This document shows, piece by piece, positions 5,604 to 38,103 of a stretch of DNA of 64,000 bases (position 1 is the first letter of the stretch; the number at the start of each line of letters is the position of its first letter). The DNA is from an uncultured Gammaproteobacteria bacterium (lineage in GTDB: Bacteria > Patescibacteriota > Microgenomatia > Levybacterales > UBA12049). Below the pieces are notes generated by a model, which saw only the letters and a list, made by a program, of their open reading frames with translations, did no database searches and was not told where the DNA came from. The DNA lies in contig CAZDOJ010000003.1 in the NCBI GenBank assembly GCA_964507055.1, forward strand, positions 4,819 to 68,818. Direction: 5' to 3'. Position numbers and translations under genes: made by a program.

Positions 5604-8600
5604 TTAATTAACAATCCACCAACTCAACCTCACATCAGTGGACTCTGCAGATCGTACCCGAATTTCAAATGTGTCAGCTGCAGTCTTCTTAACCGCAGTA
5701 GTCACTGGAATTTCTTCTGCTTGGACAAAGATCTTTGATTTATCGGACAGAGCAGAAGTCTTAACAATAACTTTTGTTTGCCCTTCCTTTAAGACAACTT
5801 CTCCTAAGGATGCACTTGCAACTTCTTCAGTATCGATATTGACCTTCTTCGCCGTAATCTCCCCTTCAGACTTCATGTTACCTTTATTATCGATTGTTAT
5901 CTTACCGTTGAGGATATCAATTCCGTTAAGACCATTTGATTGCAGTCGTAATGCTCCGACAGATGTGTTGATGGCAGCAGAACCTTCGTTATCAAGTCCT
6001 TCGATGCTAAGAAGCCCAACATTCACCTTTCCTGTGATACCTACGTCTGCAAGCGTTGTACGCCCTACAACAGCCAATGTATCAGTGACTGTGACTTTGT
6101 TAACATCAAGCTTCTCTAGATCAAGTTCTGCTGCAGATGAAGCAGTAAATCCTCCAGGTGCACTTGTCATGAAAGCTGAACTGCTCGCAGAATCCTCGAG
6201 TGTTGAAACTCGCGTAGTTAATGCTGCAAGCATGTCTTGGAGAACATTGGTCTTGCTCTTTACAGTAGTCAAAGCTGATGAGGTCGCCGTTCGTGCATTG
6301 AATGAATCATCAGAGATATTAGTGTTCTGGTTTTGAGCAAGTTGTGGATTAAATGGTTTACCATCAACTGAAATATTTCCATCTGAACTTAACGTGGCAC
6401 GTGGGTCGTACCATGATGGATTAACCAATGCAACAACTTTACCCACTGCACGAGGATCAGGATTATTGTATGATTCAACAGCCTTTGCGATTGTAGTACC
6501 AGCTTGTGTAGCCTTCATAGCAACCCCCGGAATACTACTCGAAGTAAGGTAATCACCAGGTTTGATTGGACCATTTTCGGTACTAACCTTTGTAGGAATT
6601 CTTCCAGCAAGTGCAATTGGATACTTCTTATCATTACCAAATCGTCTCTCTTCATCACCGAATCCTCCCAAAAGGATACCTGGCTTTGTAGAAACGATAC
6701 CGAGGATACTTCCCTGATAAGAATTCTCTGAGCGTTTGACGTATTCTGTATTATTTGGATCAGCAATAACAAGATCTCCTGGCTCCAATGTATTGTCTTT
6801 TGATGGATAATTCTCAGCTAAATCGATTGCGGTAACTGTACTGGATTCTGCATAGATACGTCCTGCTAGTCGTGAAGCATCATCACAATTACTTCCTCCA
6901 TCATCAACACAAAGTGCACCATTACCGACATGAAGAGAACCATCTGGCAGATTTGTAAAATTATTTGTGCCCAAACCAAACGATGCCGCACCAGTAAGGG
7001 TTGCCAATGTTACCGTCGCAGCTCCATTATTTTCAAATACAAATCCCGCATTAGCATCATAGACTTTCAAATAAACATTCTCTGCAGTTCCAGCATTGTA
7101 TTGAGAGAATAAGATACCTCCACCAATATTTGCACCATATATATTTGGATTTTGGATATAATTTAATGAAGATATTCCTCGTACATCGAAATCATAATTA
7201 GGATCCGTAAGTCCAATACCAACTCTTCCGCCTCCTCGTTGTAAAATAAGATCATCGTAAACCCCACCAATAATGGATGCAATATCATTGTAACCTCCGC
7301 CTGTTCTGTTTGTGCCAAATGCCAGATAATTCAGTGAGCCAGGTCCATCAGTGAATAGTACAGAATCTCCACTTGTATTTCCTGCAACATACAAAGGATT
7401 TCCTGGATTGGTTACTCCCCCAATACCTACATTTCCGCTATTCGTAATCACGAATTTGGTAGCCCCACTCTTTGAGGCGGTAAAGAGATCTCCGACGCCA
7501 TTATTATCGACCATGAAAGCGGCTTTTGCAGTACTCGCTGATATCGAAGCTGCCGGAGCGGTTCCGCTAGTACCAAAGATACTCAATGCTCCATTTATTG
7601 TTTGTTCCCCGTTAACTGATAATCCATTCCACATTTGAGCATTTCCTGCGACAGTGAGACTGCCATTACTAAAGATATTTCCGGCAAAAACACTTCCGCC
7701 TACAGCTCCATTGCCAACCATACCTGAAGCTGATGCGATATTGCCTCCAGATAATCCGATGAGGTCAAGATTTGCGTTCATTGAAATTCTTGCTGTACTT
7801 GCATAGTAGACAGTGCTTTGAATACCACTAGTACCACTTGTGGTTGTAGAGCCTCCCACTACATACATATATCCGTTTTCGATAACACCATTCTTCGAGA
7901 TGTTCCCACGAACTCCAGGAATTAAGTATTGATTGGTTGCCCATGTTCCTACAGTTCCATTGTCATTCAATTTTGCAAAGAAAACTTCATCTTGAGCATT
8001 ACTTGTATCATCTCCTCCCATCGCATAGACATAACCATTTGCCACAACTGATGAATGACCTACTCTTGCGGCTGGCATTCCATTGGTTGAAGTCCATGAA
8101 CCGACAGAACCATCACCATTTAGCTTTGCAAAATAAACATTTGTTGTACCGCCACTTGCATTACCTCCGATCATGTAGACATATCCATTAGCGACAACTG
8201 ATGTATGACCTCGAGTTGCTGCTGGAAGGTTGGTACCATTGGTCGTCCATGCTCCAATTGATCCATCTGAATTAATCTTTGCATAGTAAATGCTATTGAT
8301 ATTGTTATTGATAACATTGTTTGATCCTCCAAGCATATACAAGTATCCATTGGCGACAACTGAAGATTGGGATTGAATAGCCTGAGGCAAGTTGGTTGCA
8401 GTCTGCCATGATCCAAGTGTTCCATCAGTATTAAGTCGTGCATAGTACACTTTATTTTGAAGCGTAATAGAAACCTGTCCACCAGCAACATACACATAGC
8501 CGTTATAAACCACTGCAGTTGCATTACTCAAACTTGTTGGAAGCGAAGACGTGGTTCTCCAGTCTCCTACAGAACCATCTGCATTTAATGCCGCATAATA

Positions 8601-37332: not shown

Positions 37333-38103
37333 ATGCTTAGAAAAGGTATTCTTGCCACGATTGTAGGATTGCTGTTTGTGACAGCTATTTCCCCTGTGGC
37401 AGCATCAGATTTATCAAACGGAACTGCCATAGGTGTTACAGTCTCAGACAAAGACATTCAGGACGGTGATATTATTAGCTCAACGCAAGAAGGTTACAAA
37501 AGAACTGTTTCAGCGTATGATCCACAAATCTTTGGAGTCATCAGTAAAAGACCAGCGGTATATTTAAGTGACACAACTTCCCCAACAGATCTTCCTGTCA
37601 TCAGTGTCGGACAAGCTCGCGTCCGAGTTACTACACAAAATGGAAATATCCAGCGAGGAGATTTTATAACTTCTTCAACAATACCGGGCGTTGGTCAGAA
37701 AGCGAGAGATAACGGCTATGTTATAGGTACAGCAGATCAAGATTACAGTAACAATGACACGAAGAAAGTTGGGATAATTCTTGTAACACTCCATCCTCAT
37801 TTCGCAAAACTATCAAACGATATCACAAGGAATCTTTGGAATACAGCAACATTAGGATTTACGGCTGCACTTGAAACACCTCTTGGATTTGTGAGATATG
37901 TGGTTTCCGGTACGATCGCATTACTTTCATTCTTCTTTGGATTTAGATTCTTCGCAAGATCATCCAATCGAGGTGTTGAAGCAATTGGACGTAACCCTCT
38001 TGCAAAGCAAGCAATCCTCTTAAGTGTGTTCATCAACAGTATGGTTACTATTGCAATTATGTTCTTTGGTGTTGCTATCGCGTATTTGATTCTAGTACTA
38101 TAA
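37333..38103 (+). CDS. Fusion-like membrane protein: N-terminal signal/anchor, a roughly 120-aa extracytoplasmic domain homologous to a C-terminal domain of giant protein B, and a C-terminal 2-TM hairpin resembling ATP synthase subunit c (loop 'VEAIGRNP') but lacking the conserved carboxylate and Gly motif. First gene of the atp operon.
   Basis: Strong RBS. Ends 4 nt before atpF. The C-terminus '[46 protein letters not shown]' resembles the c-subunit loop 'QGKAVEGIARQPE' followed by helix 2, but the E/D position holds Ile/Thr. The ectodomain '[14 protein letters not shown]...[22 protein letters not shown]' matches giant B 'GDLVIADPNNTEYVKRS...[22 protein letters not shown]'. Confidence 0.6.
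   Translation: [256 protein letters not shown]

What the first reader, a model, noticed from the sequence alone, without database searches (positions are those of the whole stretch)
6400..37700. A roughly 120-aa domain shared between the C-terminal region of giant protein B and the ectodomain of the atp-operon leader protein
Giant B near its C-terminus ('GDLVIADPNNTEYVKRSENSYQGSILGIVSTKPG...[50 protein letters not shown]...VGKVVALVNPSWYDP', about 6400-6800) aligns clearly with residues about 55-175 of the 37333-38103 protein ('[33 protein letters not shown]...[47 protein letters not shown]...[12 protein letters not shown]'). The conserved core is 'NG.I..GD[FY][IL]TSS.IPGV..KA'. A module exchanged between a giant surface fibre and a membrane protein co-transcribed with ATP synthase suggests a common binding partner or cell-envelope anchoring function.
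Basis: seen in the sequence. Interest (0 to 1): 0.65.

Follow-up and report, generated by a model that had tools for sequence, protein, structure and literature searches.

The report
Phage-fibre chaperone domain on ATPase c-subunit
A folding and trimerising domain known from phage tail appendages is shared by a giant surface fibre and by the rotor-like membrane subunit of an unusual ATPase in a group of ultra-small bacteria, which suggests that this ATPase works on the cell surface rather than making ATP.

Summary
Giant B residues 2301-2441 and residues ~31-160 of the 256-aa protein are homologous (BLASTP E 6e-18; profile-profile 99.7%, E 1e-25; shuffle z 27).

The domain is a distant member of the Peptidase_G2 / phage cement fold, the C-terminal auto-chaperone of the phi29 gp12 appendage. 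Giant B keeps the D-x-A-E motif that aligns with the gp12 self-cleavage site. The ATPase-operon copy has G/I at those positions and cannot cleave that way.

The "leader protein" is not a leader. It consists of a signal peptide, this ectodomain and a two-helix hairpin resembling F-ATPase subunit c. The GRNP loop is invariant, but a hydrophobic residue replaces the ion-binding carboxylate in 80 of 80 genomes. The operon is c-like, b-like, delta, alpha, gamma, beta, epsilon, with no a subunit in 72 loci.

At least 146 Microgenomates (CPR) species carry this operon. It lies beside giant HTH-TM fibre genes in 62 of 80 loci. These often carry the same domain, and in two loci (L071, L052) sit directly upstream on the same strand.

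Best reading: an atypical, non-ion-translocating F-type ATPase whose rotor-like subunit displays a fibre-type trimerisation domain outside the cell and is functionally tied to the giant fibres. The coupling mechanism is inferred, not shown.

The parts
5604..13724 (-). Giant B gene (2706 aa): N-terminal MerR-type HTH, one TM helix, a huge extracellular repeat/fibre region, the G2-like domain and a 265-aa tail
   Evidence: ORF list; translation; orthologues in L001/L002 carry Pfam MerR/HTH_17
13575..13709 (-). Giant B cytoplasmic HTH (residues ~6-50, 'LTIQEAATFFRVSTRTLRRWEEKGYL')
   Evidence: MerR/HTH_17 hits on the orthologous giants
13281..13346 (-). Giant B single TM anchor (residues 127-148)
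   Evidence: hydrophobic stretch in the translation
6402..6824 (-). Giant B Peptidase_G2-like / phage-cement-like domain (residues 2301-2441)
   Evidence: BLASTP; hhalign; AF2 model pLDDT 85; best PDB fold match phi29 gp12 C-terminal fragment 3gqh_A, E 1.6e-5; family profile hits gp12 at E 6e-4
6813..6824 (-). D2301-L-A-E2304, the predicted autocleavage dyad; the predicted scissile bond is I2300|D2301
   Evidence: D, A and E are nearly invariant in the fibre-type family and align with gp12 D692-F-A-E695, the first residues of the cleaved fragment 3gqh. Cleavage itself is inferred.
5607..6401 (-). Giant B post-domain tail (residues 2442-2706): coiled-coil-like segment plus a beta-rich region ending 'WWIVN'. 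Conserved in CPR homologues, absent in Bacteroidota homologues
37333..38103 (+). 256-aa fusion protein: signal peptide, G2-like ectodomain and a subunit-c-like hairpin. It is the first gene of the ATPase operon
37333..37404 (+). Signal peptide (residues 1-24, '...SPVAA|SD'). The cleavage site is judged by eye only
   Evidence: sequence; AF2 helix 3-17 followed by a low-confidence linker
37408..37812 (+). Ectodomain (residues ~26-160): a non-cleaving copy of the G2-like domain, with G30 and I33 in place of the D and E
   Evidence: all-beta model with pLDDT 83-92; fold matches phage cement/decoration proteins and gp12; weak Pfam XM1_gp53 (7/28) and Peptidase_G2 (6/28) hits
37879..38097 (+). Subunit-c-like TM hairpin (helices 183-218 and 222-255) with the invariant loop G219-R-N-P222 (37987..37998). 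The canonical carboxylate position holds Ile
38108..38821 (+). b-like stator protein (237 aa; one N-terminal TM helix plus a long helical region)
   Evidence: NCBIfam subunit B E 0.012; position between the c-like and delta genes; conserved in 49/80 loci by tblastn
38839..39342 (+). delta (OSCP) subunit
   Evidence: Pfam OSCP E 1.5e-4; NCBIfam delta
39339..40832 (+). F1 alpha subunit (P-loop GNRKTGKT)
   Evidence: NCBIfam alpha 412 bits, below the equivalog cut-off of 554; translation
40843..41730 (+). F1 gamma subunit (ORF opens at 40732; ATG at 40843 fits the 292-295 aa of relatives)
41791..43182 (+). F1 beta subunit ([15 protein letters not shown])
   Evidence: NCBIfam atpD 450.8 bits against a cut-off of 462.85; translation
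43186..43587 (+). epsilon subunit
19070..35968 (-). Giant A (5632 aa): same HTH-TM-fibre architecture, divergent neighbour of the operon, no G2-like domain
36263..37222 (+). 319-aa protein with a C-terminal DeoR-like HTH, between giant A and the operon. Syntenic only in Levybacteria (12/80 loci)

Best explanation
The shared ~140-aa module is a distant member of the Peptidase_G2 / phage-cement fold, the homotrimerising C-terminal auto-chaperone of phage appendages such as phi29 gp12.

In giant B it lies at the far end of a membrane-anchored extracellular fibre and keeps the D-x-A-E dyad. It therefore most likely nucleates trimer folding of the fibre and may cut itself off at I2300|D2301 (inferred).

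In the 256-aa protein the module is a catalytically dead copy. It is exported by a signal peptide and permanently tethered to a two-helix hairpin homologous to F-ATPase subunit c. That hairpin keeps the cytoplasmic R-N-P loop, which in canonical enzymes contacts gamma/epsilon, but it lacks the ion-binding carboxylate.

Together with b-like, delta, alpha, gamma, beta and epsilon, and with no a subunit, this protein forms an atypical F-type ATPase conserved across Microgenomates. This ATPase cannot translocate ions by the known mechanism.

The operon is persistently linked to genes for giant fibres that carry the same domain. The most likely role (inferred) is that ATP hydrolysis in F1 applies torque or conformational work to the c-like assembly. 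The extracellular fibre-type domains of that assembly would then couple to the giant fibres or to their assembly, much as mycoplasma 'F1-like X0' ATPases serve surface protein systems.
For: Homology of the two copies.

Fold and family:
- Both AF2 models (pLDDT 80 and 85) retrieve the same PDB set. This comprises the phi29 gp12 C-terminal fragment 3gqh/3suc, the phi29 gp8.5 base, and cement/decoration proteins of BB1, Pam3, Sf11 and TW1.
- The fibre-type profile hits gp12 residues 688-743 at E 6e-4, with D-x-A-E aligned on D692/E695.
- Pfam Peptidase_G2, XM1_gp53 and Phage_cement give weak hits in both families.
- Phage homologues lie at the C-terminal ends of virion or tail-fibre proteins.
- The dyad is lost in the fusion family, where G30 and A32 are invariant and the corresponding motif reads 'NGTAIG'.

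c-like hairpin:
- The only database hits are c subunits: PDB profile E 0.019 and 0.16, NCBIfam E 0.009, Pfam ATP-synt_C in 3 of 28 members.
- hhalign against canonical c subunits gives E 4e-5, probability 69%.
- GRNP is present in 80 of 80 loci. The canonical Glu position is hydrophobic in 80 of 80.
- The N-out topology fits subunit c.

Operon:
- alpha is found downstream in 74 of 80 loci, beta in 73, gamma in 70, epsilon in 68 and delta in 62.
- No polytopic ORF lies on the operon strand inside the operon in 72 loci. Seven of the flanking polytopic ORFs were scanned and none hit ATP-synt_A.
- The F1 catalytic motifs are intact.

Linkage to the fibres:
- A divergent HTH-TM giant gene lies immediately upstream in 62 of 80 loci.
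- A fibre-type domain copy lies within 10 kb in 14 of 80 loci, plus L001 and L002.
- The giant gene is on the same strand directly upstream in L071 (7-bp gap) and L052.
- Some fusion-protein variants carry the giants' HTH + TM N-terminus.

Precedent: the mycoplasma Type 3 F1-like X0 ATPase includes a protein with a signal peptide, ectodomains and two C-terminal TM helices, and it is required for the surface MIB-MIP system (PMC12994834).
Against: - Sequence support for subunit-c homology is weak. Every score is below the curated cut-offs, and hhalign gives only 69%. TM1 lacks the GxGxGxG packing motif.
- Absence of an a subunit and of a canonical c subunit is shown only for the operon and its +/-10 kb flanks, not for whole genomes.
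- Ring formation, rotation, trimerisation, autocleavage and any contact between the ectodomain and the fibre are all untested. A threefold domain on a ring of unknown stoichiometry is a geometric problem.
- In giant B the domain is followed by 265 more residues, unlike gp12, where it is terminal.
- Of the 10 divergent upstream ORFs that end inside the fetched flank, 7 show no domain within that ORF. Most of these are short and may be truncated or frameshifted.
- Giant A, which is the operon's immediate neighbour in this window, lacks the domain.
- Conserved synteny could reflect co-regulation by the giants' HTH rather than physical coupling.
Confidence: 0.6

Rival explanations
1. This is a conventional ATP synthase. 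Genuine a and c subunits are encoded elsewhere in the genome, and the 256-aa protein is an extra accessory, assembly or anchoring subunit that merely resembles c. The shared domain has no mechanistic link to the fibres.
For: Whole genomes could not be scanned. The c-like signal is sub-threshold. alpha and beta score close to canonical F1 models. The literature treats CPR enzymes as ordinary F-type ATPases (PMC11665869; PMC5383146).
Against: - The protein occupies exactly the c position, ahead of b-like and delta, in about 70 operons.
- The R-N-P loop is invariant, and no other small hairpin gene or polytopic gene lies in the operon.
- Splitting atpB and atpE away from the rest of the operon in every one of 72 genomes would be unusual.
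- The persistent fibre linkage is left unexplained.
Confidence: 0.2
2. The domain is a binding module for a common partner, such as the cell wall, an S-layer or a host surface. It anchors both the fibre tip and the ATPase membrane sector to the same envelope component.
For: Both copies are extracellular. The most conserved motif, NG.I..GD.[IL]T[ST]S.PGV..KA, is shared by both families. Phage cement proteins with this fold do bind another protein lattice.
Against: No carbohydrate- or peptidoglycan-binding family was hit. The closest relatives are self-assembling trimers used for fibre folding or capsid cementing. The fibre copy keeps a self-cleavage dyad, which fits a chaperone better than a permanent anchor.
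Confidence: 0.15
3. The similarity is chance, low complexity, or a recent intragenomic duplication or gene conversion with no functional meaning.
For: Giant proteins in this window are highly repetitive and rich in Gly, Ser and Thr.
Against: BLASTP gives E 6e-18 with composition correction, the shuffle z is 27.5 and hhalign gives 99.7%. The domain lies outside the repeats. Same-genome pairs are no more similar (28-43%) than pairs from different genomes (mean 34%), while within-type means are 41%. Both types are conserved across Levy-, Woese-, Ames- and Roizmanbacteria.
Confidence: 0.01

Closest known systems
phi29 pre-neck appendage gp12 C-terminal auto-chaperone (MEROPS G2; Pfam PF11962 Peptidase_G2, IMC autoproteolytic cleavage domain; PDB 3gqh, 3suc, 6qz9)
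   Same: It has the same fold and is the top PDB hit for giant B. A sequence profile matches across the cleavage site, with D-x-A-E aligned on D692/E695. It sits at the distal end of a fibre or appendage. From my own knowledge (Xiang et al., Mol Cell 2009): it is trimeric, assists folding, and is then cut off.
   Different: The relationship is very distant (18% identity; giant B scores 11.8 bits against the Pfam cut-off of 25). In giant B 265 residues follow the domain. The ATPase-linked copy has lost the dyad, is N-terminal to a membrane hairpin, and is cellular rather than viral.
Phage capsid cement/decoration proteins (Pam3 gp6 / E217 gp24 PF22758, XM1 gp53 PF23982, Borrelia BB1, Sf11, TW1; lambda gpD/SHP-like trimers)
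   Same: These are the best fold matches for the ATPase-linked ectodomain. Weak Pfam hits to these families occur in both families. They are non-cleaving, permanently displayed trimer modules.
   Different: They bind capsid lattices. Here the module is fused to a membrane hairpin in a bacterial ATPase operon.
F-type ATP synthase subunit c (Pfam PF00137)
   Same: It shares the two-TM hairpin, the N-out topology, the cytoplasmic R-Q/N-P loop, a Gly six residues after the carboxylate position, and the operon position before b and delta.
   Different: It has no carboxylate (hydrophobic in 80/80 loci), no GxGxGxG motif in helix 1, a conserved mid-membrane N/H, a ~135-aa extracellular domain plus a signal peptide, and no partner a subunit nearby. 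Scores are below the curated cut-offs.
Mycoplasma Type 3 'F1-like X0' ATPase (MIB-MIP-associated) and Type 2 G1-ATPase (M. mobile gliding motor)
   Same: These are F1-derived ATPases that lack the a/c proton path, are linked genetically and functionally to large surface proteins, and occur in genome-reduced bacteria. Type 3 includes a protein with a signal peptide, ectodomains and two C-terminal TM helices (PMC12994834).
   Different: The CPR operon keeps delta, a b-like stalk and a recognisably c-like hairpin, and has no 12-TM protein. Its alpha and beta score higher on canonical F1 models than on the mycoplasma-specific ones. No sequence link between the membrane subunits was found. The origin appears to be independent.
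MYRF / endosialidase-type intramolecular chaperone autoprocessing (ICA, Peptidase S74) domains
   Same: The concept is the same: a phage-fibre trimerisation and self-cleavage module recruited into a membrane-anchored cellular protein that also carries a DNA-binding domain (PMC3742440, listed). Giant B likewise combines an N-terminal HTH, a TM helix and a chaperone-type domain.
   Different: It is a different fold and family (S74, not G2). In MYRF the cleavage releases the DNA-binding part. Here the domain is extracellular and far from the HTH.

Membership tests
Peptidase_G2 (PF11962) auto-chaperone domain | Significant match to the curated family model | tested here: inconclusive
   Giant B scores E 0.16, 11.8 bits, against a cut-off of 25. 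Five of 32 fibre-type homologues match (best E 4e-5) and 6 of 28 fusion-type members match (best E 0.008). A profile of the fibre-type family hits gp12 itself at E 6e-4.
Peptidase_G2 (PF11962) auto-chaperone domain | Fold of the gp12 C-terminal fragment | tested here: met
   For the giant B model the top PDB hit is 3gqh_A (E 1.6e-5), followed by 3suc. For the fusion-protein model, 3gqh_A scores E 1.6e-3 and 3suc E 2.4e-3.
Peptidase_G2 (PF11962) auto-chaperone domain | Asp/Glu dyad (gp12 D692, E695) at the N-terminal boundary, next to the scissile bond | tested here: met
   In giant B, D2301-L-A-E2304 aligns with D692-F-A-E695, and the dyad is nearly invariant in the fibre-type family. It is NOT met in the 256-aa protein, which has G30 and I33 at those positions.
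Peptidase_G2 (PF11962) auto-chaperone domain | Autoproteolysis and trimer-assisted folding | not testable with these tools
   This needs expression of residues ~2200-2706, with and without D2301N/E2304Q, followed by SDS-PAGE/MS and SEC-MALS.
Peptidase_G2 (PF11962) auto-chaperone domain | Located at the extreme C-terminus of the fibre | tested here: not met
   In giant B and its CPR homologues 265 residues follow the domain. In the Bacteroidota homologues and in PA5oct gp359 the domain is terminal.
F-ATPase subunit c (PF00137) | Match to curated models above the cut-off | tested here: not met
   Pfam matches 3 of 28 members, best E 0.095. NCBIfam PRK07159 scores 16 bits against 122. The PDB profile search finds only c subunits, but at E 0.019-4.7. 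hhalign gives probability 69%, E 4e-5.
F-ATPase subunit c (PF00137) | Helical hairpin with a cytoplasmic R-Q/N-P loop and N-out topology | tested here: met
   The AF2 model has helices 183-218 and 222-255. GRNP is invariant in 80 of 80 loci. The signal peptide places the N-terminus outside.
F-ATPase subunit c (PF00137) | Essential Asp/Glu in the middle of helix 2 | tested here: not met
   The aligned position is I, V, L, F, A or G in 80 of 80 loci. Seventy-five have no acidic residue in helix 2 at all, and five have one only near the cytoplasmic end.
F-ATPase subunit c (PF00137) | Encoded with b, delta, alpha, gamma, beta, epsilon and next to subunit a | tested here: inconclusive
   The F1, delta and b-like genes follow in about 70 of 80 loci. 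Subunit a is absent from the operon and its flanks.
Mycoplasma F1-like X0 (Type 3) ATPase | Seven-gene cluster with alpha-, beta-, gamma- and epsilon-like proteins, a 12-TM protein, a small cytoplasmic protein and an SP + 2-TM protein; no delta or b | tested here: not met
   Delta and b-like genes are present, and no polytopic protein is encoded in the operon. Only the SP-ectodomain-2TM architecture and the link to surface proteins are shared. alpha and beta score lower on the MSC_0618/0619 models than on the canonical ones.

The most novel reading that the evidence does not exclude
Microgenomates have turned the F-type ATPase into an ion-independent, ATP-driven mechanical device. In this reading, a carboxylate-free c-like rotor with no a subunit carries phage-fibre trimerisation domains on the outside of the cell. 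It engages giant HTH-anchored surface fibres that bear the same domain, through homotypic or mixed-trimer contacts. It would thereby power fibre assembly, retraction or movement, for example attachment to host cells. This would be a second, independent invention of the 'F1 motor drives surface legs' principle so far known only from mycoplasmas.
Probability: 0.25. Interest if true: 0.9.

Novelty: new variant of a known kind. Interest (0 to 1): 0.7.

Why it matters
CPR/Patescibacteria lack respiratory chains, and the role of their 'ATP synthase' is an acknowledged puzzle (PMC11665869).

In one large CPR class the enzyme appears to have no ion path at all. It has no carboxylate in 80 of 80 genomes and no a subunit in the operon. 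Instead it exposes a phage-appendage assembly domain on the cell surface, next to giant fibre genes that carry the same domain.

If this is confirmed, three things follow:
- Metabolic reconstructions that score these genomes as 'F-type ATPase present' would be misleading.
- It would give a testable candidate for how ultra-small epibionts energise their surface machinery.
- It would extend the repurposing of rotary ATPases, so far seen in mycoplasma gliding and MIB-MIP, to a distant phylum.

It also gives a concrete prediction about maturation of the giant fibres: self-cleavage at I2300|D2301.

Tried and rejected
- Direct Pfam and NCBIfam scans of the two window proteins gave nothing significant for the domain. 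Only family-wide scans and profiles revealed Peptidase_G2 and phage cement.
- The fusion-protein ectodomain finds no phage sequence by tblastn. The fibre copy does, in PA5oct-like jumbo phages.
- An AtpI or 'leader' role was rejected. The architecture differs, with a signal peptide, an ectodomain and a c-like hairpin, and the scans returned no AtpI hit.
- An endosialidase S74-type chaperone was rejected, because all fold and profile hits go to G2/cement families instead.
These ORFs either had no hit or were M50 peptidase, an ABC transporter or a Wzy-like/TPR protein.
- The extra gene between the c-like and b-like genes in Woesebacteria is a phosphoglycerate mutase by its sequence motifs (no family scan was run), not a membrane subunit.
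- Recent gene conversion between the two copies was rejected.
- The afdb50 fold library was unavailable.
- Five literature searches found no description of this fusion or of a carboxylate-free c subunit in CPR. A sixth search on Woesebacteria complete genomes returned nothing.
- Rfam and tRNA scans of the window were empty.

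
Full report
**1. Observation**

The window encodes giant B (5604..13724, minus strand, 2706 aa) and a 256-aa protein (37333..38103, plus strand). BLASTP aligns giant B residues ~2310-2450 with residues 39-163 of the small protein at 32% identity over 139 aa, E = 6e-18.

A local-alignment shuffle test gives a score of 180 against 31 +/- 5.4, z = 27.5. Profiles of the two families align with 99.7% probability, E = 1.3e-25, over 126 columns. A tblastn search of either copy against the whole window finds only these two copies.

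**2. What the domain is**

Neither window protein hits Pfam significantly on its own. I therefore collected homologues.

The giant-B-type domain occurs in many bacteria (CPR, Terriglobus, Chitinophagaceae) and usually closes a fibre-like protein. Its N-terminal boundary carries a nearly invariant D-x-A-E motif. A profile of this family hits the phi29 pre-neck appendage protein gp12 at residues 688-743 (E = 6e-4). It also hits the crystallised cleaved fragment 3gqh, whose first residues are DFAE, so giant B D2301-L-A-E2304 aligns with gp12 D692/E695.

Pfam Peptidase_G2 matches 5 of 32 family members (best 4e-5; giant B itself only 0.16). Phage cement families also match weakly.

The AF2 model of the giant B domain (pLDDT 85) has 3gqh_A as its best PDB match (E 1.6e-5). 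The next matches are phage cement/decoration proteins and the phi29 head-fibre base. In the viral structure library it matches many phage tail, tail-fibre and 'preneck appendage' proteins at 24-30% identity. By sequence it matches the C-terminal end of a virion protein encoded next to the tail-fibre gene of the jumbo phage PA5oct.

The AF2 model of the 256-aa protein (pLDDT 80; ectodomain 83-92) retrieves the same set of structures. Members of its family give weak XM1_gp53, Peptidase_G2 and Phage_cement_2 hits.

From my own knowledge (Xiang et al., Mol Cell 2009), the gp12 domain is a trimeric auto-chaperone that is removed by self-cleavage before D692. In the 256-aa family the two dyad positions are G30 (invariant) and I33. 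That copy therefore cannot cleave by this mechanism.

**3. What the 'leader protein' is**

The protein has four parts:
- a signal peptide (1-24);
- the beta ectodomain (~26-160);
- a short amphipathic helix;
- a C-terminal helical hairpin (183-218 and 222-255).

The only database relatives of the hairpin are F-ATPase c subunits, and all of them are weak:
- NCBIfam E 0.009;
- PDB profile E 0.019 and 0.16;
- Pfam ATP-synt_C in 3 of 28 members;

Some JGI records already name family members 'subunit c'.

Across 80 species-level genomes the loop G-R-N-P is invariant. A Gly six residues after the carboxylate position is kept in 78 of 80. The carboxylate position itself is always hydrophobic. A mid-membrane Asn (61) or His (19) is conserved instead. 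Helix 1 lacks the Gly-rich packing motif.

**4. The operon**

Downstream lie a b-like protein, then delta, alpha, gamma, beta and epsilon. The F1 catalytic motifs are intact in the translation. alpha and beta score just below the canonical equivalog cut-offs.

The same gene order is seen in L001-L006. In 80 genome loci alpha follows in 74, beta in 73, gamma in 70, epsilon in 68 and delta in 62. At least 146 GTDB species carry the fusion, among them Levy-, Woese-, Ames- and Roizmanbacteria. There are 562 clusters at 50% identity with E <= 1e-30.

No a subunit was found:
- In 72 operons there is no polytopic ORF on the coding strand.
- Seven of the flanking polytopic ORFs were scanned and none hit ATP-synt_A.
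- An AtpB query finds nothing.

Whole genomes could not be scanned.

**5. Link to the giant fibres**

A divergently transcribed gene with the giants' HTH N-terminus lies immediately upstream of the fusion gene in 62 of 80 loci. Most of these genes run off the 10-kb flank after 1000-3000 codons.

A fibre-type copy of the domain is visible within the flanks in 14 of 80 loci and in L001 and L002. In L001 and L002 the adjacent giant (2973 and 2893 aa) is the giant B orthologue. In L071 and L052 the domain-bearing giant is on the same strand directly upstream of the fusion gene, with a 7-bp gap in L071.

Some fusion-protein variants of 450-540 aa replace the signal peptide with a cytoplasmic HTH plus a TM helix. 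This is the same N-terminal architecture as the giants.

The two domain types are old, separate lineages. Within-type identity averages 41%, between-type identity averages 34%, and same-genome pairs are 28-43% identical. This argues against a recent exchange.

**6. Mechanism**

Shown:
- homology of the two copies;
- fold-family assignment;
- retention of the dyad in the fibre copy and its loss in the fusion copy;
- c-like loop and topology;
- absence of the carboxylate;
- operon content;
- conserved synteny with the fibres.

Inferred:
- The fibre copy nucleates trimer folding and may self-cleave at I2300|D2301.
- The fusion protein is the rotor-like membrane subunit of an F-type ATPase that cannot move ions by the known mechanism.
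- ATP hydrolysis does work on an extracellular partner through the displayed domains, and the partner is most plausibly the neighbouring fibres.

The nearest functional precedent is the mycoplasma Type 3 F1-like X0 ATPase. It contains a protein with a signal peptide, ectodomains and two TM helices, and it is required for the surface MIB-MIP system (PMC12994834). A second precedent is the Type 2 gliding motor. The CPR system is not a member of either (see the membership tests).

**7. Rivals**

- A conventional synthase with a and c encoded elsewhere remains possible (0.2).
- Chance or composition is excluded.

**8. Novelty**

Five literature searches found no description of this fusion or of a carboxylate-free c subunit in CPR, and a sixth returned nothing. 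Reviews treat CPR enzymes as ordinary F-type ATP synthases whose role is puzzling.

The domain belongs to a known superfamily, and atypical F1-derived ATPases are known. What is new is this combination and its distribution: a c-like subunit without a carboxylate, a phage-fibre chaperone ectodomain, no a subunit, and linkage to giant fibres. I therefore rate it a new variant of a known kind.

Noticed in passing
window 1..~4900 (- strand): A third giant gene with the same MerR-type HTH + TM + fibre architecture ('giant C') starts near 4900 and runs off the window start (>= 1640 aa). The ORF list omits it because it is cut by the window edge.
   Followed up: partly
window 14761..19002 (-): A 1413-aa protein with Peptidase_M23, DUF2341 and Laminin_G_3 domains lies between giants A and B. 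It could be a cell-wall hydrolase in the same surface-protein cluster.
   Followed up: partly
P0296, P0328, P0330 (homologues, 460-538 aa): These variants of the c-like fusion replace the signal peptide with a cytoplasmic HTH_17/MerR-like domain plus a TM helix. This is the same N-terminal module as the giant fibres.
   Followed up: partly
L071 3701..9880 and 9887..10666; L052 3..9899 and 10001..: In two genomes the domain-bearing giant fibre gene is on the same strand directly upstream of the c-like fusion gene. The gap in L071 is 7 bp, so the two genes are probably co-transcribed with the ATPase.
   Followed up: yes
L038 10694..12433: In Woesebacteria a phosphoglycerate mutase-like gene (assigned from sequence motifs only, no family scan) is inserted between the c-like and b-like genes, and many other loci show a ~2-kb gap at the same place. 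A glycolytic enzyme inside the ATPase operon is unexplained.
   Followed up: partly
window 38009..38011 (N235) and family position 16 after the loop Gly: A mid-membrane Asn (61/80) or His (19/80), with a Thr four residues later (58/80), is conserved in helix 2 of the c-like hairpin although the carboxylate is absent. Its role is unknown.
   Followed up: no
window 46085..48319 and 48431..49609 (-): Two secreted proteins carry Dockerin_1 domains, one of them also CBM_4_9. This is cellulosome-type docking in a CPR genome.
   Followed up: no
window 5607..6401 (-) and homologues P0145, L038, L071: The tail after the domain is conserved among CPR fibres and ends in a 'W[WLF][IL][VI][ND]' motif. Its fold and role are unknown.
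   Followed up: no
whole window: There are no tRNA genes and no Rfam family above the gathering score in 64 kb. GC drops to 0.30 in the last 2 kb (62001..64000).
   Followed up: partly
record titles of L008, L011, L012 and others: Many MAG records that carry this CPR operon are titled 'uncultured Gammaproteobacteria/Pseudomonadales'. These appear to be mislabelled in the public records.
   Followed up: no
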